Origin: Octopus vulgaris
Taxonomy: Eukaryota
Length of the DNA: 64,000 nt
Direction: 5' to 3'
NCBI GenBank assembly: GCA_951406725.2
Contig: OX597814.1
Coordinates: 59,520,001-59,584,000 of the forward strand
Of this stretch, positions 1 through 60,292 are shown piece by piece; position 1 is the stretch's first letter, and each line of letters opens with the position of its first letter. The notes below the pieces were generated by a model. It ran no database searches, was not told the DNA's origin, and worked only from the letters and a program-made list of their open reading frames with translations. A program made the translations under genes and the position numbers.

Positions 1-81
<81 letters not shown>

Positions 82-110: not shown

Positions 111-329
111 TACACACACAGACGCACGCACGTACAAAACACTTGTACTGTGGTAACACATGGAAATGGCGTTTCCTTATTTTTTCGTATATACCCAAAT
201 TTAAAATGATCTAATATAACGATATCATTCATCCAACATGTGTTGAAATATGCCAAAACCATTTCATTCCTCACAAATGTATGCTAGTGTACATATAGTG
301 TATGTGTTAATTCTATTTGCTGAAACTTG

Positions 330-14812: not shown

Positions 14813-16805
14813 ATGGTTTCCATAATTTCTGTTTGCCAATGATTTCTTAATTGATCGAAACTTTGTACTTCATAATTTATTTCAGTATCGTAGTTTTCAT
14901 GGCTTAAGTTGTAGTGTGTTTCCACGTCTTTTCTCATAGAGTTTCGCCATCAACGAGTAAATACACTGCCTGCGTTGATTGGAAAAATATTGTATGTTTT
15001 CCTACTGAAAAAAATGTCCGTGTGTGTGAAATGATAAAGACGAGCACATTTACTTGACTGAAGTATTCATATAGTATTTATCATATTGACTCTGATAAAA
15101 TGAAATCCTATATAGGGTCTGGCAGTGTTTGTCGAGCAATAACATTTAAACACAAACATTCAATTGTTCTTATCTATTCCCTATCATGAAAGAGGTATAT
15201 CATGAAAAGGAAACGTTTTATATTTTGACAGTCCAATAATTCATAAGACCCATGTATCAAATTGTTCGAGATAATAATGTTTCTTGTGCATTATTCTTTG
15301 GAGACAATTGACGACTGCATTGTAAAAGTTATTTAGATTTAGCATAAAATACCGACTCAACCATCCGTATATAACAGCCATTAGCCTTCATATATTTACA
15401 AGAAAGAAAGGTCACATTCTACAAATACATATAGGAGTCTTTTTCACTGGTATGTTTTGTCCATATTCATTTTATAAGAGTCAACCGAGCTAAACAAGAA
15501 CTTAAGCAGCTCCCACCTCTCTCTCACTCTCTCTCCCCCTCTCTCTCTCTGTCTCTCTCTCTCTCAAACGCCAATAAATATTGCATGCAGCAAGCACAAG
15601 AATTCACATTCCTATGTGGCATATACGGAGACAAATATATATTTTCCTTATGGTGACTTGCAGTTTCACTTCTAATGATTTTCCAAATGATATTTCAATT
15701 AATATATTTATAATTCACGAAATATTATACTAAGTATTAGAATACCATCTTAAAATACTACAAGAACTAAAATGCCGTTGGGGATTCATATATATATATA
15801 TAAATATATGGGGGGGGTATGTGTGTGTATGTATCTCTGTGTGTGTGTCTGTGTGTGTATAGATAGATAAATATTATAGATGTATATCTGCGCTCACACA
15901 CACATATATTGTTAGTTACTTTATTTGTTAGTGAACATTAATAGGTACACTGACTTAGCTATCCAAAATAAGCAAGTATATTCAATATATTCACGTACAC
16001 GTAATTTACATTCGTATGACAAGAATACATAAATATAATCATTTTATGCACCTTCACTGAATATAGGTTCATATAGTAAATATTTGCATGTTAGAGTTAC
16101 CATAAGTTAAATGCAAAACTAATATATAAAGAGTATCAGAGTTATTAGACTACAAATACTTCATTAGCTTGCAAAATTTCTCTATTTGATTGATACGTGT
16201 TCTTTTCACTCAAGAAACATTTCAGTTAAGATTAAAAATCCGATAAGGCATGTAATTTTAAACATATATCAAATTGTTTGCAGTGATTGCAACAGTTTGC
16301 GTTCAGCTTTGTTTTACTTTAACTATACAAAACAATCTGTGGTGTAACAGATTTTCTTCGTCAAACAAAACTCACTTAAAAGCAAATGGACCACCATTCA
16401 GCAAAAGGTTTGCTTCCTGCGATTTTTTCTACTCTAAACACAAGTGCAAAATAATTTACTCATAAAAAAAATGTTAGAAGCATAATGTTTAAAGAGTTGC
16501 AGTAGAGACACGGTCACGAACTAAAATCAATAATCTGTTTTAGGTAATTTATTTAAATGGAAATATTAACTCATAAGTATTCAGATTACAAGTAAGAGTG
16601 CATAGTATGAATATTCACACATTACAAAACTGAAATACTACTTTAGAATTAAGTTGGCTAAAGCTGACAAAGATTTAATCATTCAATTAGAAGCATTTTA
16701 TAGTTGACTCATCACTGACGCTCAAAGCATGTCAACAAAATATAGTTTTAAGCAAGTATTCATTGCTAATATTCAAAAGCATATATATATATATATATAT
16801 ATATA

Positions 16806-17278
16806 GTGACGTATATTTGCCATTTGAATATGGCTAACCCCTAAGGGTGGATGCTACTGTAGTTTGTAGCCCCAGGAATATATCTCCTCCAGCTGGCTAT
16901 AGACACACTATCTGTGCCCTATCAGTATTTGTGAGGGAAGTCATCCTTCCCGTCTTCAACTTATGATACACACGGACTCGAGTTTCAAGGTGTTTACCTA
17001 TCATCAGCGTGTGACAATCATAGTTGTCGACGAGAATTCAGTTTCCCTCACAAATACATATACTTTTTCCAGTGTCGATTGACACTGATATTGAAAAAGT
17101 GAAATCAAACAATGATAAATCTCAGAGCGAGTTATAAACAGTAGCGGTAACACATCGTGACGCATATTTGTCATTTGAATATGGCTAACCCCTAAGGGTG
17201 GATGCTACTGTAGTTTGTAGCCCCAGGAAGATATCTCCTCCAGCTGGCTATCAGTATTTGTGAAGGGAAGTCACCCTT
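16806..17278 (-). mobile_element. Retrozyme-like tandem repeat, family A (351-nt period, ~1.3 copies)
   Basis: gtgacgYatatttgYcatttgaatatggctaacccctaagggtggatgc... starts at 16806 and again at 17157. The unit contains a canonical hammerhead. Confidence 0.8.
16969..17013 (-). ncRNA. Type I hammerhead ribozyme
   Basis: Minus strand: cacacg CTGATGA t aggt aaac acct t GAAA C TCGA GTC cgtgtg. 6-bp stem I, intact core, 4-bp stem II, palindromic stem III, GUC cleavage triplet. Confidence 0.9.
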
Positions 17279-17920
17279 TAGGTTGATGGAATAGATAGCT
17301 TCCTTGTGCAATCACAATTGCGCTGGGCTGCCCATGTCGTGAGAATGTGTTACGAAAGAATACCAAAATCCCCATGTAAAGCCAGCTTGACAGTGGGCAT
17401 GGGAATGTTGGTCGGCCATGACTCAGATAAAAGGACAAGCTGAAGTGTAACCTCTTAGATAGTTCACAACACCTTTGAGGGATCAGCCTTGGAGAGAACA
17501 ACATAGAGGTCGTTGTGTCAAAATGGTATTAGAAACTTTGTTGCAGACAGCACTAATAGGCTTCGGGGTGCAAAGAAAAGGAAAGAAACGGCTGCGAATA
17601 TACCACATGCACTGACCTGTAATCATCAAACTTGAAACATCGGTGAGCTCCTTTGCAAATCGTTGGTGAGACTTAAATGTCACATTCGACAGAAGCATTA
17701 TGCCTGACAGAGAAAGAATACGTGTCGGAACATTATGGGTCTAAACTGACAGGTGAGTCCATTAAAACATACCGTATTTTAAAGTGTATAAACCATGTTT
17801 ATCAAAAATTAAGATAAAAAATATAGGAGTTTATATATATATATATATATATATATAAAGTTCTATGAAGGCTAATCAAGTTGTTAATAAACAATAAAGT
17901 CGAACTCGGCGGAATTTGAA

Positions 17921-17973
<53 letters not shown>

Positions 17974-17992
17974 CAATAATAATAATGATATC

Positions 17993-18025
<33 letters not shown>

Positions 18026-18069
18026 AATAATAATGATAATAATAATAATAATAATGATAATAATAATAA

Positions 18070-20171
18070 GTGAAGAAACAAATGAACCAAAAAACTATAG
18101 ACCCATAACTTGCTTAACAACTATGTACAAAACACTAACATCTGTCCTGACGGAATATACCTATAGTTTTTTAACAGACAGCAGCATATTCCCTAATGAA
18201 CAGAAAGGATGTAAACGTGGATCCTACGGCTGTAAAGACCAACTACTCATCAATAAGATGATCTTAGAAGATTGTCACAAACGACACAAAAACTTATCAA
18301 TAGCCTGGATAGACTATAAAAAGGCTTTTGATAGCCTACCACATAGCTGGATTAGAAAATGCCTTGAAATGTATAAGATAGCACCAACTCTGCGAAACTT
18401 CTTGACTGTAAGTATGAGATCATGGAGAACCACACTAACTCTGAACAGTGACAGTGAATTCCTAAATGCTGGTGATGTAAAAATTTCGTGTGGCATTTTC
18501 CAGGGTGACTCACTGTCACCACTCCTCTTTTGTTTATCCTTAATACCTCTCTCAAAGCTGCTCAATGACGCGCAGTACGGGTATAAAATGTTTGATAAAA
18601 ATATAAATCATCTCGTTTACATGGATGATTTAAAGCTTTTTGCAAAAAATGATCAACAACTCAAGGGCTTACTAGCGATAGTCAAACAATTCAGTGACGA
18701 CATCAGAATGCAATTCGGCCTCGATAAATGTGCAAAGGCTACCTTTATCAAAGGAAAAATGACAGAAACATCTAACGTTAACCTTGACCAACAGAATGTC
18801 ATAAAAGAACTAGACCCAGCGGAGAGCTACAAGTACCTAGGGATAATTGAAGGGAACGGAATAAGGCATTCAGAGATGAAGGAAAGGATCAGGAGAGAAT
18901 GCTATCGAAGAGTGAGAGCAATACTCAAGACAGAGCTGAATGCAAGAAACAGGATCGAAGCAATCAATGCATTAGCTATACCAGTCGTGACTTACAGTTT
19001 CAATATTGTTAACTGGTCAATTACTGAAATATGTCAGCTCGACAGAAAAATAAGGAAACTGTTGACAATGCATAGAATGCACCACCCTAAGGCAGATACA
19101 GAACGACTCTATCTGCCAAGAAAAGAGGGAGGTCGTGGTCTTTTGCAACTGGCAATAACAATGAAGATTGCTACAATTGGCCTAGACACCTACCTGAAAA
19201 ACTCTGAGGACTGGATGCTAAAACTTGTCTCAAAACATGAAAACAAGAAAGCATCATACTCAGTCACAAAACAGGCAAAGGAATATCTAAGTGAATTCCG
19301 AATACAACCAATTTCGGAGATAGATATACAAGAAACAAGCACAGAAAAAGCTAGGCGCATGAAAACCCGTGCCAAAACTGCGGCCTTAGATATTCTGAAT
19401 AATAAATGGCAAGAAAAACCTCTCTATGGCAAATACCCAAAGAGAGCGAATAATGCAGATATCGACAAAGCCCTGACCCATCAATGGCTAATGGCCTCTG
19501 TCTTAAAATCTGAAACAGAGGGGTTTATCATAGCAGCTCAAGATCAATGCCTACCAACAAGAAACTACCAGGCCAACATATTAAAGATCAGAAGCAGTCC
19601 AACGTGTCGTGTATGCAAGCAACAAAATGAAACCATTGACCATGTGGTCTCCAAGTGCAGTCTTCTAGCGCCTACAGAGTATCTCAACAGGCACGATAGA
19701 GCTGCACAATATATTCACTGGGTAATCTGTAAAAACCTGGATTTGCCCCATGAAAAAAACTGGTGGGAACACAAACCACCCCCAGTGCTTGAAAATGACC
19801 ACATCTCACTCCTCTGGAACTTCACCATTCAAACTGACAGGAAGATAGATGCAAATAGGCCAGACATCATATTGAAAAACTTCAAACAAAGAACATGCCT
19901 CCTCATTGATATGACTGTCCCAATCGATATAAACGTATCTGTCAAGACCTACCAAAAACTGAGCAAATATAAAGATCTTGAAATAGAAATCAGCAAAATG
20001 TGGAAGCTGAAGACTAAAACAATACCTGTTGTCATAGGTGCCCTGGGAATGATAGCAAAAGGGGCTGATAGCTACCTAACTCAGATACCAGGAAACCCAA
20101 AAATGGCAGAAGTTCAAAAGATAGTGCTCATGGGAACTGCTCATATCCTACGCAAAATACTCTCTATGTAA
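18070..20171 (+). CDS. Reverse transcriptase + CCHC zinc knuckle + restriction-like endonuclease (5'-truncated)
   Basis: NYRPITCL, WIDYKKAFDS, GIFQGDSLSPLLF, YMDDLKLF, YKYLGI, CRVC..ETIDHVVSKC, RHD, NRPDI..IDM, KYKDL. The upstream poly-L/I part of the called ORF is microsatellite. Confidence 0.95.
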
Positions 20172-20405: not shown

Positions 20406-20443
20406 TAATAATAATAATAATAATAATAATATATGTAAATATC

Positions 20444-20582
20444 TATACTTCCCATAACCAATACAAAACTGATAACCTGGTTTAGAACTCAATATATACA
20501 TGTGTTTTAGATCAAAATTGCTGATGAGTATAGATCGGAAATAACAAAAGGTAAAGTTTTTCTTTCGTCATCTTTGTTTTGC

Positions 20583-20634
<52 letters not shown>

Positions 20635-20773
20635 GCAAAACAAAGATGACGAAAGAAAAACTTTACCTTTTGTTATTTCCGATCTATACTCATCAGCAAT
20701 TTTGATCTAAAACACATGTATATATTGAGTTCTAAACCAGGTTATCAGTTTTGTATTGGTTATGGGAAGTATA
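20444..20773. repeat. Perfect 330-bp palindrome: 143-bp arms around (TA)n
   Basis: 20444-20586 is the exact reverse complement of 20631-20773. Confidence 0.95.
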
Positions 20774-20782
20774 TATATATGG

Positions 20783-22943: not shown

Positions 22944-23850
22944 CATATGAGGGGTTTAGTTCACTGGTGATCTAAACGAATAGGTACGCTGGCTAAGTTC
23001 AAAGCTGACGCTGGAGCTAGAGGGCCGTATTAGGCTTCCGTGTTAGCAGATATATTTTAGAGCAAAGGGACAACAAGATCTAAGGCAGGATGAATATTTG
23101 AAAGTGATTTATAATAATTTAATTAGGGTAAGGTGAATTAGACTTCAGATTCATCTTACCATAATTAAATTATTATAAATGACTTGAGATACCCGTTGTC
23201 ATAGACATAACAATGGTTGTCTGGGTGATTTACACAGCCTCTCCTATTCAATAATCTAACACAATGAACAGTAATCACGCAGTGTGAGAGATACACACAC
23301 TACACGTGACGGCGGCGCAAACGACACTGAGTGTTATCAAGAACAATCTGACGTATTTGGCATTACGCACAGTACATCAGCTCCATCTATTACTAAACTA
23401 AATAATGAACTTTCTCATCGTTTGTTTTATTGCTGTTATTTCTTTAATTTTGAATTAAGACCGCTTTCATTTTAGCAAATTTTATAATACGTTCTATATC
23501 TAGCTGAAAGTATAGTTATTATCTTGTGCATGCGCATAACTAAAAATCGTGACGTGCTAGAACAATTGAGTGCGGATTCGGAATCAGCATCCTCGATTTA
23601 GTCTAATGCATATGTTTTTATCCCAGTAGAAAAATTGTTGTTGTCCAGTGTTATTTTTCTCAATTCGGATAACCCATTGAGATAAGAGTTCCTTTATTTC
23701 TGTTTTCTCCTGTGAAGATTACTTATGTATGCTAGGATGTTAGATACACAGATGTTATTATTTGTCACACATACACACACACACACATACATATGTGTGT
23801 GTGTGTATGTATGTAGAAGCAAGAAAAGTTACACACGACTTGATATGTTG

Positions 23851-25296
23851 AAGGAAAAAAGACAAGATAGAAAATGGTAAAATAATTTTATCATGAAGTA
23901 CATTTTAGTATAGGTTTCCGTTGTTTAGACGTTTTCAACTAAGAGTAAAATAAAAAAAAAAAAAACAATTAAATTGGAGAAAATATATTAAGAGAAATGT
24001 TTTGTAAATATTTTCATAGTCTTCAAATAGGTAAGTATTTCCGTAGCCTTCAGATTGTCTGTGTGTGTCTCTCTCTTCCTTTCTGAATGCTTAGTATGTA
24101 GGTAGTAGTAAATTTGAAGGAAGAGTTTATGAGTACAGGGCATTGATGGTTTAAGCAGGAGCAGCCGAGGGAAGAGACGAAGAAGAAGAAGAAGAAGAAG
24201 AAGAAGAAGAAGAAGAAGATGGAAGCGGAGAAGGAGATGAAGGAGGAAAAGAAGTAGACGTAGGGAAAGAAGAGAAAGGAGAAACAAAAGAAAAGAAAAA
24301 TCCAGGAGTTCTGTGACTCAGTAGATTGTTCTGTAATGGTCAAATTGTATAAAAGTGACCTGTTGTGGTCGTAGCATTAGTGATTGGAATTGTTCTAAAT
24401 TCTTGTAGTCGTTTCATATGTCGTGGTGGCATTCAAAATAAGTTTATATTCTGCGATAAAATATGCTTCTTTGCTAATGCGCTGATTATAGGTTGCCTTA
24501 TCATCGAATTTATAGAGTGGGAAAATTCTGAAGTTGGGCTGTTCGTTAGAGATGCAAATGTCTTTGCTTAATTTTATGTTTCTGTATTATCCTATTGTAA
24601 TCTGGGACCTATATAACGTCATCCTCTGGCGTTGACTGTTTTCAGTTTGACCAATATATTGTTCTCGACACCCTGCGCAAGTTAATACATATATTAGGTT
24701 TTCGGAAGCACATGTGAAGTTGCTTTTCACTGTAAAACGTGGACAATATTTGAAGGAAAAATCCGATTCCTCAATTAGGTTGACACATACACTACAGTTA
24801 GGTATTCTGTATTTTTTACTGTCGGCTTCGATGTTGTTGACGAGTGCACTTGGGCCTCTGTTAAAAAGCTTTTCATCGAATTGGGCTGTCGTTTGCTTTT
24901 TATGATGGTGTGCATTTGGAGGATTTGATATATTCTATGGTCCCTTTTTACTAAAGGAATGGAGGACGGTGTCGCAGGGGGTTGTGCGTGGATATGTATA
25001 GTAAGGCTTTGGGCTGTAAATCCTTCTTTAGTTTGACGTGTCTGAGTTCGTGGGTTGATTTGTAGGACACATTGAAAGCCTATATCAATTAGTGATTGTG
25101 GGTAGATCCTGTGGATGAGTGTATCATTTAGCTTACATAGTCGTGTGTCCCTGGTGCTTGTACCTCATACTAAAGTACAAATCCCTTTTTTCCAGGTTCT
25201 AACTCTTAGTTGATACAGACTAAGCGACGGAAGCCGGTACTAAAATGTACTTCATGATAAAATTATTTTAGTATTTTCTCCCTAGTCTTTTTCCTT
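23851..25296 (-). mobile_element. Degenerate Penelope-like element with inverted terminal repeats
   Basis: The minus strand at ~24630-24705 reads ENLIYVLTCAGCREQYIGQTEN (GIY-YIG). 23851-23948 and 25201-25296 are diverged inverted repeats, each containing a decayed hammerhead-like motif. Confidence 0.85.
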
Positions 25297-26242
25297 ATAT
25301 ATATAGGTGTGTGTGTGTGTATAAATGTATATATATATCTTATATAACAAAACAGAGTTTATATATATGTATGTGTGTGTGTGTGTGTGTGTCCGTCTGT
25401 GTGTCTGTGTGTGTGTGTCTGTGTGTGTGTCTGTGTGTGTGTCTGTGTTATATAACGAAACAGAGGGTGTGTTTGTGATTCTTCCCGCGAGAATGTTTCT
25501 TATGGAATCGAAAACTGAGTTACAGATTTTGACGTATGAGGTATCAAAAGACTCGTAATCTTTCGGCTACCAAATAAAGTATGTTTTATGGACAACAACT
25601 TTATTTTTACTACAATATTAAGCTCAAAATTTAGGTCGAGTCGCACAATTTTGAAGTCTTTAGCTATTGTAGGGAACTCTGCCTGAGCAATCTTCAAATA
25701 TATGGAGTTTTACCAGGGAATAAAACTTCGAAGATATACCGTCAGGTTTATTAGTATCATTTAGTAAATAATATTTTAATCGGGAGTGTTTGTCTGTGTT
25801 TCGTTTAGCCTAGAGTTGCCTTTGATCTAACAGACCATATATCTAGCATAGATTTTTTTTCTTCCTGAAAACTGTAAATCTGTATCTTTCTTTTGATGTA
25901 AGGATGTGTTTTAAGAGAGATCAGGCTGTTATTTGTAGTAGGCCAAATTACCACAGAGAATCTCTGTTTGTGCGCGTGTGTGTATGTGTATGTGTGTGTG
26001 TGTGTGATTTGTTGTAGCAAAAACAATACTGGACAACTTTCTTCCAGTTAACCATTCAATACCAAATTACAATTGTTATTTGTTGGAACTCAATTACACT
26101 GAGATGTACATACTGTCTTATCGTATAGAGTGGAAGTTCAACACGAAGTTTTGAACTAATTATCTTGTAGCTAATAATCCATTACCTTAAATTTGAAGCT
26201 ATTGAGCAAGCCGGCAAATCGGCCACTCCGCCACTGTATATA

Positions 26243-49817: not shown

Positions 49818-50106
49818 TACGATTTTAATTGCCCAATATATATTTTACTTTTAATTTGTTTTTGTCTTACGAGAGAGAATTTGGAAATATTAAATTTCTA
49901 AATCCCTCATAGAGATATGTACGGTGGTGGGGCGATAGAATGGTTGTATACTGTCAATCTAACGTGAACGTGACAGTAGGGGGTTACACCACCGCTGTTT
50001 AGCCCTAGGAAGCATCGACGCTTCCTGCTGGCTTCGACACATTTTTCCTGTGTCCTTATATACATTTACGAAGGGGAGACAAACACCCTCAGCAGCCAGG
50101 CCTGCA

Positions 50107-50153
50107 TCTAGAGACACGCATGTTTCAGGATCATTGTCCATCATCGGTCAAGA
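50107..50153 (-). ncRNA. Type I hammerhead ribozyme (CCGAUGA variant)
   Basis: Minus strand: tcttga CCGATGA t gga caatga tcc t GAAA C ATGCGT GTC tctaga. Confidence 0.75.
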
Positions 50154-50180
50154 GTAGCAGACGCCCGCCAGCTGTTGATA

Positions 50181-51826
50181 AATTTTTATTATAGGCACAA
50201 TGGCCCGAATACAGAGCGGACATATCAATACAGGTACATATAATAAAAAAAATACAAAAAGGATGGTATGACAATGAATTATTTATAATGAATTAATGAA
50301 ATGTCTTACGGGTTCCCCAAGCTCGCAGTTTCATTTAAATTACCATTGTGTTATTCAGAGCGTTCATCTGTTATGTATTCTATTCGAGTACTTCCTCCGG
50401 CTCTATAATCCCTGGCAAACTCTCGTACCGAACGTATTGCATTATGCATATACCTGTATACACTTTGCTCAGTTTCATCACTGTCTCTCTTTCCACAATC
50501 GCCGCCTTCACCTGATCATCAAACATTTTCGGATTTAATTTCACTCTGGTTAAATTTTTTATGTTTGCCAACTTCTTCTCAATTTCCTTGTCCTTCCTTG
50601 TCCTACCGCTTTCAGATTTCTTCCTTTTGGTCTATTTCCTTCCTTACATATTCTCAGCCAATCTTCCACTTTACTTTCCCATTCTTTCTCCTCCTGCCGC
50701 CTTGAAACTTCACTGGCTTTCGTTTCAGTATCTTCCTCTTCGTGCGTTCGAACCTCTATCTCGTCGGTAGTCTTCTTTTTGTTTTTTTCTTTTTTTTTGT
50801 TGTACTTTAGGTAGTGATTCCACCCGCGTTCTCTTTCTATCTTCTTTTCCTTCTGTTCTTTCCTTTTCTTCCTCCTTCACCAACTCGTCACCACTTTCCA
50901 CATTATCTGTATTCACACTTTCTTCTTCTACATCCGCCATTTGCAATTCCTCTGTCAGAGCCTCCAATGTTATCATCTCCTCTTGTACTTTTTTTGCGGA
51001 CACACATCCTTCATGTGGCCTCTAATCTTACATCTGTAGCACACTGGGGGTCTCCCCTCTACCACGACTCTGAGCCGTGTCTCGTCGGGGAACACCAACT
51101 CTTCTGGGATGTTATACATGTCTGGCATGGTTATGTGTACCAAAGCCTGTACTGCATAACCCCACCACTTTACTTCCTTTGACCTTTCTATCTTCAATAT
51201 CTCGACATTCTCCTTGCAGTTAAATATTGTTGCTGCTATAATTCTCTCCATTTTCAATTCTGGTGAAATTTTGCTGCTTCTTATTCTCACCGCTCGTTTT
51301 CCACAATAGCTAGGTAGTAGTACCCATTTTTCATTTTTCAGTATTTTCGTAGCGTTCTTCTTTGCTTCAGCTTCGTTCTCAAAATGAACTACCACCGTCG
51401 CGTACTTTCTACCTCTATTATAGAAGGTAGCTTTTTCTTCAATCTCCTGCAAACACCTCTCGATTTCCTCCACATCTGCCACTTCTATTTTCTTCGAAGC
51501 CACGCTCCACGTTCTATATGCCACAATACGCCTCTCTGCCTCCTTCACTTCGTCTTCTGGTAGTGTGACTCTCAAGCAGTCACCCTCCTTCTTGAAACTG
51601 TTGAAGTATTCCTTCAGGCTCTCCTTCTCGACGACCACTTCCTCCAACTGCAGCTCGCTCGCAGCCAGACCCTTGCCTGCCGCTCCTGCATAAGTTTGGG
51701 TTTGCATATTCAAAAAATAATTTCCACAATTCACCACGCAGTAACAGCTTCCACCAACGAACTCGAACTCAGAACCGCGACACACAATAAACGTAATCCA
51801 AAATATCCGACATAAACAGAAAAAAA
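50181..51826 (-). mobile_element. 1646-bp ORF1/gag-only retroposed element with 15-bp TSD
   Basis: cgccagctgttgata occurs at 50166-50180 and 51827-51841, while the opposite arm shows the empty site (single copy). aataaa lies at the 3' end. No RT is present. Confidence 0.85.
50380..51707 (-). pseudogene. LINE ORF1-like nucleic-acid-binding protein with CCHC zinc knuckle, frameshifted
   Basis: From ATG 51707: MQTQTYAGAAG..., an RRM-like segment, then LRVVVEGRPPVCYRCKIRGHMKDVCP. An acidic/basic tail continues in shifted frames (50725-51003, 50380-50571). Confidence 0.82.
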
Positions 51827-52218
51827 CGCCAGCTGTTGATATCTGTCCCGATTCGCAAATGTAAATATCTAATTTTCAGTGAAGTTTATTCACTGATTAC
51901 CAAAATCAGAAATATTAAATTTCTAAATCTCTCATAGAGATATGTACGGTGTGGGGCGATAGAATGGTTGTATACTGTCAATCTAACGTGAACGTGACAG
52001 TAGGGCTAAACAGCGGTGGTGTAACCCCCTACTGTCACGTTCACGTTAGATTGACAGTATACAACCATTCTATCGCCCCACCACCGTACATATCTCTATG
52101 AGAGATTTAGAAATTTAATATTTCTGATTTTGGTAATCAGTGAATAAACTTCACTGAAAATTAGATATTTACATTTGCGAATCGGGACAGATATCAACAG
52201 CTGGCGGGCGTCTGCTAC

Positions 52219-52265
52219 TCTAGACCGATGATGGACAATGATCCTGAAACATGCGCGTCTCTAGA
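52219..52265 (+). ncRNA. Type I hammerhead ribozyme (CCGAUGA variant)
   Basis: tctaga CCGATGA t gga caatga tcc t GAAA C ATGCGC GTC tctaga. 6-bp stem I and GUC triplet. Confidence 0.8.
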
Positions 52266-53249
52266 TGCAGGCCTGGCTGCTGGGGGTGTTTGTCTCCCCT
52301 TCGTAAATGTATATAAGGACACAGGAAAAGTGTGTCGAAGCCAGCAGGAAGCGTCGATGCTTCCTAGGGCTAAACAGTGGGAGTGTAACCCCCTACTGTC
52401 ATGTTCACGTTAGAGAGAGAATTTACTTTCGGTAAACTATTATTGGCGACATTTGCAGCTTCAAATCGCTATATCTCATATGAAATACATACTGAATAAA
52501 TATTCGTCCATTGTCATGTCTAGTAATAATCATTTTTTAAAATACAGTTACCTTCTTGATCAACACACACGTATACACACATGCCTATTCCCGCAATTTT
52601 TGTTTATACCGTTGCATATATAAATATAGATGTGTGTGTGTGTGTGTGTGCCTGTGTGTTTATGCGTGTGCCTGTGTGAGTGATAGTATTTGTGTGGTAA
52701 GAGTAACTTGGAACTTGTAGCAACGACGTACTCACAACTACAGACTACCTATGCGATGTACTTCACTTCTCAGTTGTCTTCATTGAATATAATATATAGT
52801 TTATGACGGGCAAGAATTGTGAAGAGTCTGGGCCTCCAGCTACGAATTGCAGGTGTAAATCTCAGTAAGGTAACTCTTCAGATAAACAGATATGGCTTTC
52901 AATAACTGTGGTAGAGTGTCTTTTTATATAAATGAGTCTTTATTCAGACATGCTCTGCCAGCAATCCGAACTATACGCCTGCTGATGTGTTGAGAGTATG
53001 CTTCAACTTATCTTATATTTGGATACGAGACGAACAATCTCAGCTTTCCATCCAAAATGAGGGATGGACTCACTAGACGTGCCTTAACATCCCAGGTTGA
53101 AAACATTTTAATTTAGATGAAGAATTTATCAACTAGCAGTTGAAATTTACTCACAAAAATGTAACATTTTACACAAATGTTACTGGTTTGCAAAGGTAAC
53201 AGCGTAGTACAATGGTATAAATTTTACATTATGGTTGGTAGTAATATTC

Positions 53250-58239: not shown

Positions 58240-58415
58240 CGTTTAAATATTTGTTGTGCAAGATTTTTTATGTGAAGTCGTGTGTTGAAACAGATATTGT
58301 TATATTTCGGAATGGTCATATTGCCAGTGTAGCCAATAAAAACACACGCACTATATATTTGGTGTTATTTTGCTTCAGTGATATTTATTTTTTACATTAA
58401 TCTTAATCTTATTTC

Positions 58416-58460
58416 GGCCAAAGTTCTTTCGTCACACTCCTGTGACCGCATCAGTGGTCC
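58416..58460 (-). ncRNA. Hammerhead-like motif in the Penelope 3' terminal repeat (variant core)
   Basis: Minus strand: ggacca CTGATGCG gtcaca ggag tgtgac GAA AGAACT T tggcc. Confidence 0.55.
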
Positions 58461-58936
58461 TTTGTTTTCTTCTCACATATTTGTGTCTCTCCTTACTAAC
58501 CGTCAGCTATTTTGTATTTCTATTGTATGTCTTCATTTGCGTATGTTTATATCTCTATGTGCGTCTATGTTTATTTAGTGTGTGGAGGGGGGGATGCCTG
58601 TAATATTTGTATCTTCTGTTTATATACATTCTTGTAATTTGTATTTTGTTTTTGTTGTTGTTGCTTTTGTTCTAATTTTGTTCATGTGTTTACATCCACC
58701 CATTATTATCATTACATATGCTTGTATGTATGTATAACAACAATATTAGTAATAATAATAATAAATCTAATCGAAAAAAAAATATATATTTATATATATA
58801 CACACAAATATACACATATACATATATATATATATATACACATATACATACATAGATATATATACATATATATAGTTATTCATTTCTATTTGTTTATTTA
58901 TCTGTGTATTTATTATGCTTTCAGGATCCTCTATCG

Positions 58937-60110
58937 TCATATGTTGTGGTGTGTGCTATTGCTCCATTCTAGTTTTCTATTCAGGCTAGGTTTATTTTCT
59001 ATTATATGTGTAGCTTCTGTAATTTGTCTAATTGTTGCATCTGTTCTATGTGTGGACAATATCTTAATCTCTATGTTATTGATTGATCCCCCGTGTTCCT
59101 GTTCGGCGTGTTGGTACAGAATCGATGAGCTTTTACCTTCCTTGAGTTGTCTCCAATGTTCATTCACCCGCTCTCCAATGCTTCTTGCTGTTTCCCCTAC
59201 GTATGTTACTGTCTTGTTACTGCATCGTTCCTCTATACATCTTATACTATAGACTACATTTCTGGCTTTACAGTTTATTTGTGGGCTAAATCTACATACA
59301 GTGCAATAGTTATCCGTACAGAGGGTTCTACTAAAAGGATAGGTTCTACCAATTATAGATCTGATAGCGTTGCCTGGCTTTTCAACAACCTTAATTCTTA
59401 GTTTAAGTTTATCTAGGGTCCTTCTAAAGCGGTACGCCAGTTCACCTCCAGGGGTGGTGTCAACGAACATGACACTCTGGTATTTATGGCTATCATACCA
59501 AGAGTTGGCCTTCCCTATTTTCTTTTTTGTCCTTTCTATAGTGTTCCATGACTTGTTCCTATAGATTGGGCAAATCCCATTCCTATCATTACATAATATA
59601 TTATCAAATTTCTTCATGGCTCCTTTGTATACTCTGATCCTTTCTTTATGGCTGTAACCTGAGAACTGCATGCGGTGAATGAAATACTGTATGTGTCTCT
59701 TTAATTCTGTAGGCTCGCACATGCGTGACACATTTCTCATTATTCTGACGAGGTCTGCCATCAAAATATTGAATTTGGCATTGCCCGCAATGGCTGAGTT
59801 CCGGTGGATCAGGTATTTTGAGGCCATAGGTTTTGCATAGTATGAATGAAGGATTTGGGTTTTATTTTTCACAATTTCTAGCCAGAGTTCAGTGTCTAGT
59901 ACTGGTAGTCTATGGTTGGAGTGTTTAGTGGGGTAGTCTATTGTGACCTTAATACTCTGGTGGATGGAGTTAGCTATTTGCTGGATGCTCTCCATAGTAT
60001 TAGTTTCTATTACTATATCAACATTACTCTCTTGTGGGGGTGCCTTTACTACTATGTTGATATCATCAACATAGCGAGAGTACATGTTTACAAGTATGGA
60101 TTTCTGTAAT
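58937..60110 (-). CDS. Penelope-like RT C-terminal half plus GIY-YIG endonuclease
   Basis: YSRYVDDI, LPVLDTEL, YYAKP, CxxxxCxxC linker, NVVYSIRC...TYVGETARSIGERVNEH, EATHI..KPSLN. Open for ~390 codons. Confidence 0.93.
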
Positions 60111-60215
60111 GTAAGATTAATGTAAAAAATAAATATCACTGAAGCAAAATAACACCAAATATAGAGTGCGTGTGTTTTTATTGGCTAAACTGGCAATATG
60201 ATCATTCCGAAATAT

Positions 60216-60292
<77 letters not shown>

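What the first reader, a model, noticed from the sequence alone, without database searches (positions are those of the whole stretch)
16845..16947. Conserved ~105-nt domain shared by the two otherwise dissimilar hammerhead repeat families
Seen by manual alignment: 16845-16947 (gggtggatgctactgtagtttgtagccccaggaa..atc..cctccagctggctatagacacact..ctgtgccctatcagtatttgtgagggaagtca) is colinear with 49979-50089 (gggggttacaccaccgctgtttagccctaggaagcatc..cttcctgctggcttcgacacatt..ctgtgtccttatatacatttacgaaggggagaca). In both families it lies ~20-30 nt 3' of the cleavage site in the same orientation. Both hammerheads also have a U-U opposition at the base of stem II, while stems I-III differ in sequence but keep pairing. 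Inference: a selected RNA module (RT recruitment, ligation, internal promoter or an unrecognised structured RNA) that defines a retrozyme superfamily.
Basis: partly seen in the sequence, partly recalled or inferred. Interest (0 to 1): 0.85.

Follow-up and report, generated by a model that had tools for sequence, protein, structure and literature searches.

The report
Conserved fold of Penelope-mobilised retrozymes
The shared stretch is real, but it is the best-conserved part of a predicted RNA fold common to one large family of ~350-nt ribozyme-carrying repeats (retrozymes) whose copies end like Penelope-type retrotransposons, and it likely serves as the docking site for the reverse transcriptase they borrow.

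Summary
The similarity is real (z=9.4, 0 of 2000 shuffles). But the two families are not otherwise dissimilar. Their 351- and 364-nt units are colinear end to end (56% identity; domain 64%, rest 53%, shuffled 47%), and a tree links them through about ten subfamilies (at least 4,681 motif copies). The domain holds two hairpins plus the 5' strands of two long-range helices; helix P3 shows two-sided changes at 7 of 8 pairs. A subfamily left out of the model rewrites one hairpin but keeps its pairing. Copies carry the Penelope-like (PLE) signature: random 5' ends, inverted arms, (AT)n targets and two fixed 3' ends about 40 and 85-100 nt past the domain, one of each per inverted pair (26 of 29). 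So these are non-LTR retrozymes moved by PLE machinery; RT docking or initiation is the likeliest role of the fold (inferred). No sampled PLE shares the sequence, but one retrozyme-PLE chimeric insertion names a candidate partner. The U-U pair is not a family trait (3 of 40). In passing: a Tx1-like element inserts at one homologous site of these retrozymes.

The parts
16803..17278 (-). Subfamily A retrozyme insertion, about 1.3 units of 351 nt; 5'-truncated at 17278; 3' end at site S1 (+172) running into (AT)n
16969..17015 (-). Type I hammerhead of A (CUGAUGA core, short palindromic stem III); predicted cleavage after 16975
   Evidence: activity not tested
16845..16947 (-).
16901..16919 (-). 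Hairpin H1, nearly invariant in sequence across subfamilies
16867..16899 (-). Hairpin H2 (two stems with an internal loop), with two-sided changes
16853..16860 (-). P3 5' strand; in a monomer it is predicted to pair with the tail segment +181..+188
17111..17145 (-). Tail of the upstream unit: P3 3' strand (17138-17145), hairpin H6, and the position of the second fixed end S2 (+215, 17111)
17041..17098 (-). Hairpin H7 and 3' strand of rod P1
17154..17278 (-). Second, truncated domain copy in which hairpin H1 is deleted
49884..50180 (-). Subfamily B, inverted arm, 3' part (hammerhead at about 50105-50156, domain 49979-50089, end at +229)
50181..51826 (-). 1.65-kb gag/ORF1-only insert of a Tx1-like family, 15-bp duplication (50166-50180 and 51827-51841), upstream of the hammerhead core
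51827..52005 (-). Subfamily B, inverted arm, 5' part; inversion junction inside H2/P3
52001..52414 (+). Subfamily B, direct arm, 1.1 units of 364 nt (hammerhead core 52225-52249, +1 at 52260, domain about 52283-52393, end at +155); composite flanked by a 12-bp duplication (49871-49882 and 52413-52424)
58240..60223 (-). 5'-truncated copy of an autonomous PLE family ('PLE-P': RT thumb, CX4CxxC linker, GIY-YIG, own hammerhead variant, inverted arm); candidate mobilising partner, not part of the retrozyme

Best explanation
A and B are two subfamilies of one superfamily of ~350-nt hammerhead retrozymes whose copies carry the insertion signature of Penelope-like elements, and the shared domain is the best-conserved part of a predicted multibranch RNA fold that likely docks a PLE reverse transcriptase/endonuclease and positions its two start sites. 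Steps. (1) Tandem units would be transcribed, self-cleaved and circularised (inferred from other retrozymes; not tested here). (2) The monomer folds into rod P1 closing H1, H2, the P3 junction (H4, H5), H6 and H7 (predicted, supported by covariation). (3) A PLE protein would bind the H1-H2-P3 region (inferred). (4) It would nick AT-rich or (AT)n DNA on both strands and start one cDNA at S1, just 5' of the P3 3' strand, and one at S2, 27-42 nt past P3. The fixed ends and their pairing are shown; the enzymology is inferred from the anole PLE. (5) The two cDNAs stop at variable points and are joined head to head, giving inverted arms; multi-unit arms fit rolling-circle copying (arms shown, mechanism inferred). 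PLE-P is the current candidate partner.
For: Whole-unit homology and a continuous tree of subfamilies. Fixed 3' ends: 45 of 50 A arms and 39 of 42 B arms end at S1 or S2. 26 of 29 classifiable inverted pairs carry one S1 and one S2 (p=7.6e-6 against 50%). 40 of 50 A ends and 20 of 42 B ends run into (AT)n. These match the PLE tail and inverted-arm structure (PMC8557442, PMC3846280). In the anole PLE the tail ends are RT start sites in a stem-loop, in an RNA region 3' of the hammerhead that the protein needs (PMC11167929). Fold: 89.7% of cells paired against 84.3+-0.5 shuffled and 36-46% slid; P3 7 of 8 pairs with two-sided change; 301 of 312 clade-majority cells paired; G-U 89 against A-C 43, favouring the hammerhead strand. 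Subfamily M, not in the model, scores 67 bits and keeps P1, H1, H2 and P3 with changed letters. One chimeric insertion joins an M arm (S1 end) head to head to a 5'-truncated PLE-P (long end), between two (AT)n runs, with 4-nt microhomology. PLE-P has a predicted helix spanning its first end in the same geometry as P3.
Against: No sampled autonomous PLE shares the domain or tail by sequence or covariance model (best 13.6 bits, E 0.6), so the Xenopus-type pLTR homology is not shown. Other hammerhead elements here (family C, Neptune-type families, PLE-P) have the same two-end pattern without this domain, so the fold is not required for PLE-type ends in general. H1, the best-conserved part, shows no two-sided change among nine clades, so its pairing rests mostly on invariant letters. 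Only 3 of the top 25 pairs of an unbiased mutual-information scan are predicted pairs (effective n 13.6), and the structure was derived from the same related sequences. The domain alone folds only modestly better than shuffles and does not favour a strand (z -1.9 and -1.6 sense, -0.7 and -2.1 antisense). The chimera is one event (four segmental duplicates) and could be a deletion joining two neighbours. The PLE-P helix has no covariation and its region has z=+0.48. No binding, expression or cleavage data.
Confidence: 0.6

Rival explanations
1. The fold is selected for the life of the circular RNA itself (compact viroid-like packing, ligation, nuclease or editing resistance, keeping the hammerhead off in the circle), and the PLE protein recognises only the AU-rich start sites.
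For: Monomers are predicted to be highly self-paired circles (-115 and -131 kcal/mol). Other PLE-type elements in this genome have two ends without the domain. Metazoan retrozymes accumulate as circles (PMC7229834).
Against: Generic pairing would not keep H1 nearly invariant in nine clades, nor keep S1 6-10 nt ahead of the P3 3' strand in A, B and M.
Confidence: 0.2
2. The domain is an internal DNA promoter (Pol III type 2 or snRNA type), as recalled for schistosome and newt satellite repeats (recalled, not from a call).
For: High primary-sequence conservation at +55..+107; the motif at +76 loosely resembles an A box.
Against: A box within 1 mismatch in 3 of 36 and B box in 2 of 36 sequences; no octamer match near the domain (consensus motifs recalled). 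ARAGORN finds no tRNA in 8 of 8 loci. Subfamily M rewrites the A-box-like stretch and keeps the pairing while being young and abundant. The G-U excess points to RNA.
Confidence: 0.07
3. Plain common descent: the domain is only the least eroded part of two related repeats, with no special selection.
For: The whole unit is homologous and the excess is modest (64% against 53%). The mutual-information scan is dominated by phylogeny.
Against: Two-sided changes in P3, H2, H4 and H5 in separate clades; P1 pairs perfectly with three different sequences in A, B and M; G-U exceeds A-C in 21 of 28 informative pair columns.
Confidence: 0.08
4. The domain is a relic of the 5' coding end of an ancestral PLE ORF, which in some PLEs starts inside the hammerhead.
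For: An AUG in the hammerhead core opens 35 codons in A and 61 in B. The anole PLE ORF starts there (PMC11167929).
Against: The peptides are unrelated, the frames are broken by non-triplet indels across subfamilies, and no PLE ORF start matched.
Confidence: 0.05

Closest known systems
Non-LTR retrozymes of animals (Cervera and de la Pena 2020, PMC7229834)
   Same: Type I hammerhead with short palindromic stem III in 350-360-nt non-coding tandem units, highly self-paired; mussel units are 350-390 bp.
   Different: Here most copies are dispersed 1-2-unit inverted insertions with two fixed 3' ends, and a fold conserved across about ten subfamilies is mapped. That paper only proposes PLEs as mobilisers. 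Expression and cleavage are not tested here.
Retrozymes as non-autonomous PLE derivatives (Li, Clavereau, Pollet, bioRxiv 10.64898/2026.07.22.740005)
   Same: Same conclusion that retrozymes use PLE machinery.
   Different: Their evidence is co-occurrence and pLTR sequence homology in Xenopus. Here no pLTR homology was found in the sampled PLEs; the evidence is the insertion signature, a covarying fold and one chimeric insertion, in an invertebrate.
PLE pLTR/tail and internal RT initiation (Poseidon of Anolis, PMC11167929; PMC8557442; PMC3846280)
   Same: [quoted passage not shown]
   Different: No ORF; tail 43-55 nt rather than 30-40; the start sites are tied to a GC-rich multibranch fold with a helix (P3) bridging S1.
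Target-specific Tx1-clade elements (Tx1 in Tx1D, Tx1-Mar, Keno; PMC4494074) - for the insert only
   Same: A non-LTR element with CCHC ORF1, RT and zf-RVT that prefers a repeat family as target, with 15-20-bp duplications.
   Different: The target is a retrozyme, and the site is fixed by position 25-38 nt before the hammerhead core although its sequence differs between subfamilies. Clade assignment was not tested by a tree.

Membership tests
Non-LTR retrozyme | Type I hammerhead in each unit | tested here: met
   Core and stems read in A, B and M; stems I and II covary across subfamilies. Rfam did not detect it.
Non-LTR retrozyme | Short non-coding unit occurring in tandem | tested here: met
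   Units 351, 364 and 359 nt; partial tandems in A and B, arrays of 5 or more in M; only short unrelated ORFs.
Non-LTR retrozyme | GC below 45% | tested here: inconclusive
   A 41.0%, B 45.1%, M 49.3%.
Non-LTR retrozyme | Self-cleavage and accumulation as circular RNA | not testable with these tools
   Only contigs from runs guessed to be RNA were available.
Non-autonomous Penelope-like element | [quoted passage not shown] | tested here: met
   A +172/+215, B +178/+233; 26 of 29 pairs carry one of each.
Non-autonomous Penelope-like element | Variable 5' truncation with an inverted adjacent arm | tested here: met
   46 inverted pairs counted (27 A, 19 B, one B pair twice) with scattered junctions.
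Non-autonomous Penelope-like element | (TA)n or AT-rich target | tested here: met
   40 of 50 A ends, 20 of 42 B ends.
Non-autonomous Penelope-like element | Sequence homology to the pLTR of an autonomous PLE | tested here: not met
   No match in the sampled Neptune-type and PLE-P families; the sample is a small part of thousands of candidates.
Autonomous PLE | RT plus GIY-YIG ORF | tested here: not met
   No such ORF in the units.
tRNA-derived SINE / Pol III type 2 promoter | Conserved A and B boxes or tRNA head | tested here: not met
   3 of 36 and 2 of 36 within 1 mismatch; no tRNA in 8 of 8 loci.
Tx1 clade (insert) | CCHC ORF1 plus EN-RT-zinc-finger ORF2, target-site duplication | tested here: inconclusive
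   L159 has zf-CCHC, RVT_1 and zf-RVT hits and a 20-bp duplication; the window's ORF1-only copy has no Pfam hit; the endonuclease piece had no Pfam hit; no tree made.

The most novel reading that the evidence does not exclude
The H1-H2-P3 junction is a portable RNA signal, a structural mimic of the PLE-P pLTR with no shared sequence, that loads a dimeric telomerase-like RT and sets two start sites on a circular template in the way a template boundary does. This would give the first defined cis-element and the first named partner for animal retrozyme mobilisation. The same element is in turn parasitised by a Tx1-like retrotransposon that finds its site by position or structure rather than sequence.
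Probability: 0.3. Interest if true: 0.75.

Novelty: new variant of a known kind. Interest (0 to 1): 0.5.

Why it matters
How animal retrozymes are copied back into the genome, and what RNA feature a PLE reverse transcriptase recognises, are both open. This family supplies a 350-nt substrate with mapped start sites, a fold with natural compensatory variants from about ten subfamilies, and a young candidate enzyme with a 1312-aa open frame, so the question becomes testable with an existing in vitro assay. The class of element and its link to PLEs are already in print, which caps the surprise.

Tried and rejected
Rfam scan: only simple-repeat miRNA noise. Family C, about 3,085 hammerhead copies with U at the base of stem II, lacks the domain. 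Two of its close pairs were fetched as possible autonomous elements and showed only simple-repeat frames. Alignment A3 held one sequence on the wrong strand and was discarded for A4. For A5, 8 of 44 representatives with large deletions or mis-joined parts were left out before counting. Metagenome pattern scan: 1 hit (L263), a GC-rich chance match without hammerhead or tail. Expression: no RNA holder listed; four runs from four coded organisms hold the family as contigs only, with RNA status guessed, so this is no evidence either way. Partner search: 30 Neptune RT loci plus 10 longer ones, 30 GIY-YIG loci and 30 PLE-P loci gave no domain match in a pLTR; local alignments of four 3' regions were at shuffle level. 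A wider chimera screen over 172 retrozyme-bearing loci found no second direct junction; hits to the NepE reference fall in its flanking sequence (likely another repeat), and L012 and L122 have about 25-45 nt of (AT)n between the parts. Clustering of 5' junctions at +94..+108 (B 4 of 19, A 4 of 27 short arms) is too thin to use. The covariance model could not be run over the whole genome, so more distant subfamilies or a partner with the fold may be missed. Earlier scan notes: nothing on record.

Full report
1. Observation. The two stretches are in the sequence as described. Both are read 5'->3' on the minus strand, behind type I hammerhead cores at 17007-16983 and 50147-50123; a second B copy lies on + at 52225. 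Their alignment scores 65 against 24.3+-4.3 for 2000 dinucleotide shuffles (z=9.4, none as high). They start 28 and 24 nt after the predicted cleavage site. Rfam did not see the hammerheads. The genome is 2.8 Gb in 227 contigs; it looks like an octopus by size and repeat make-up, which is my inference and comes from no call.

2. The families are not otherwise dissimilar. The units are 351 nt (A) and 364 nt (B) and align end to end: 56% overall against 47+-1.3% for shuffles; 64% in the domain, 74% in its core (+55..+107), 53% outside. The part outside the domain scores z=6.4, and z=4.8 without the hammerhead (0 of 1000 shuffles each). Pattern searches that excluded A and B letters, and loci found through the insert described below, gave intermediates. 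A tree of 36 copies links A and B; I grouped its rows into nine clades, and a tenth subfamily, M, turned up later (A-M 62%, B-M 55%). The core motif occurs 4,681 times against 2 for the reversed control, not counting M. Conservation along 22 near-full copies peaks at +60..+104; the low values at the far end of that profile are partly an effect of truncated copies. The U-U opposition is in 3 of 40 readable hammerheads out of 65 representatives, so it does not mark the family.

3. The fold. The domain holds hairpin H1, hairpin H2, the 5' strand of rod P1 (pairs with about +270..+285) and the 5' strand of P3 (pairs with +181..+188). Beyond it lie H4, H5, H6 and H7. On 35 copies, 89.2% of cells pair (shuffled 83.8+-0.6) and 12 of 24 pairs have a two-sided change. 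On 36 copies covering the tail the figures are 89.7% (84.3+-0.5; slid controls 36-46%) and 18 of 35, with P3 at 7 of 8. At clade level 301 of 312 cells pair and 14 of 35 pairs show more than one Watson-Crick type, none of them in H1. One-sided changes favour the hammerhead strand: G-U 89 against A-C 43, and 21 against 7 pair columns. M was not used to build the model, scores 67.4 bits (E 1.1e-11), changes an H1 pair on both sides, rewrites H2 and P1, and keeps the pairing. Against: the structure came from these same related sequences; an unbiased mutual-information scan put only 3 predicted pairs in its top 25; the domain alone folds at z -1.9 and -1.6, with antisense -0.7 and -2.1, while +50..+218 of one copy reaches -3.05. 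R-scape was not available.

4. How copies are inserted. In the 60 best-matching loci (two duplicates dropped), 5' ends scatter and 3' ends are fixed: A at +172 or about +215 (45 of 50 arms), B at +178 or about +233 (39 of 42). 40 of 50 A ends and 20 of 42 B ends run into (AT)n. Of 46 inverted pairs (one counted twice), 29 have both ends at a fixed site and 26 of these have one of each (p=7.6e-6); the other 17 include insert-interrupted copies. This is the PLE pattern: inverted 5'-truncated arm, tail at one end, microsatellite bias (PMC8557442, passages; PMC3846280, passages). In the anole PLE the tail ends are RT start sites in a stem-loop, and the needed RNA lies within 172 nt of an ORF start at the hammerhead (PMC11167929, parts 1-2 of 4). 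S1 lies 6-10 nt before the P3 3' strand in A, B and M. M forms arrays of five or more units, as expected for a circular template. The window's own B copy has atypical ends (+155, +229) and a 12-bp duplication.

5. The partner. The genome holds young autonomous PLEs: a Neptune-type family with a 784-aa frame in 4.4-kb tandems, further Neptune-type families, and PLE-P, the family of window 58240-60223, with a 1312-aa frame, CX4CxxC linker and GIY-YIG (the linker points to Neptune or Nematis, no tree made). The 784-aa family and PLE-P show two 3' ends into (AT)n, and a second Neptune-type family shows a long end in 2 of 14 printed copies. None shares the domain by profile, local alignment or covariance model. 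Four of 30 PLE-P loci carry an M arm joined head to head at the PLE's 5' truncation. They share flanks and are one event duplicated. The M arm ends at S1, the PLE arm at its long end, both in (AT)n, with 4-nt microhomology at the join: the expected product of one integration copying two RNAs, though a deletion between neighbours is not excluded. PLE-P also has a predicted helix (+73..79 with +136..142; probability 0.96-0.99, or 0.66-0.68 when the hammerhead is included) spanning its first end like P3; the two Neptune-type regions folded do not. That helix is unchanged in three of the four aligned variants and degraded in the fourth, so it shows no covariation, and its region is not unusually stable (z +0.48). 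PLE-P is therefore a candidate, not a result.

6. Mechanism and rivals. Best reading (0.6): a PLE-mobilised retrozyme superfamily (this part about 0.9) whose H1-H2-P3 region docks the RT and sets S1 and S2 (inferred). Rivals: circle biogenesis or stability (0.2); neutral shared ancestry (0.08); internal promoter (0.07; A box 3 of 36, B box 2 of 36, no tRNA); coding relic (0.05).

7. Known or new. Retrozymes with units of this size are known in mussels, with PLEs proposed as mobilisers (PMC7229834, passages and Discussion). A 2026 preprint derives them from PLE pLTRs in Xenopus (10.64898/2026.07.22.740005, parts 1-3 of 5). Short palindromic helix III and the U3-A8 core variant are described (PMC4209133, passages). 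Searches listed no paper whose title or abstract start points to this family, to a conserved fold tied to retrozyme ends, or to a Tx1 element in retrozymes (0 papers with both terms). The library lacks most subscription journals and Repbase, and I opened no supplements; the invertebrate retrozyme supplements of PMC7229834 and the preprint's tables could bear on novelty. Verdict: new variant of a known kind, interest 0.5.

8. Side finding. The window's B copy is split by a 1.65-kb ORF1-only insert with a 15-bp duplication. In 24 of its 30 fetched relatives (the window's copy included) the hammerhead core follows 25-38 nt after the insert's 3' end, in B, B-like, H and J subfamilies whose target letters differ. 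A full-length element with CCHC ORF1, RT and zf-RVT sits at the homologous site of an A-type unit with a 20-bp duplication (L159). Tx1 elements that target other repeats are known (PMC4494074, passages). This shared site further supports whole-unit homology.

Noticed in passing
window 50181-51826; L159, L161-L190: Tx1-like retrotransposon family (ORF1-only and full-length) inserted at one homologous site 25-38 nt before the retrozyme hammerhead core in several subfamilies with different target sequences (24 of 30 loci).
   Followed up: partly
L294-L297 (G000:C28 and C2): Chimeric insertion: retrozyme M arm joined head to head to a 5'-truncated PLE-P; one event in four segmental duplicates.
   Followed up: yes
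L296; G000:C3:51539982-51542162, C1:20002100-20004768: Young subfamily M (359 nt) with arrays of five or more units in both orientations.
   Followed up: partly
L061-L090: Family C, about 3,085 hammerhead copies, mostly short inverted pairs in (AT)n with two 3' ends (about +30 and +100); no shared domain; autonomous parent not found.
   Followed up: partly
L223-L232: Very young Neptune-type PLE in 4.4-kb tandems with an upstream 446-aa frame, a 784-aa RT-EN frame and a variant hammerhead core; L223 runs past an N stretch into telomere-like TTAGGG repeats.
   Followed up: partly
window 58240-60223; L298: PLE-P: 1312-aa frame with a long Asn-rich insert, a hammerhead with an unusual core and cleavage triplet, ORF start inside the pLTR.
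   Followed up: partly
window 20439-20778, 2483-2726, 855-879: Further hammerhead-like cores, two of them in palindromes (likely PLE remnants); no match to the domain.
   Followed up: no
window 23797-25314: Degraded Neptune-type PLE fragment with GIY-YIG and inverted ends.
   Followed up: partly
window 17898-20171: 757-aa frame resembling a non-LTR RT with a restriction-like endonuclease, beside (ATT/AAT)n repeats (judged by eye).
   Followed up: no
L237-L262 downstream of GIY-YIG: One Neptune-type family has a 3' UTR of repeats rich in CCAAT- and CRE-like motifs followed by a TATA-like box, like an enhancer array in the pLTR (motif names recalled).
   Followed up: no
window 17154-17278: The truncated second A copy lacks hairpin H1 exactly, as if the RT skipped a folded stem.
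   Followed up: no
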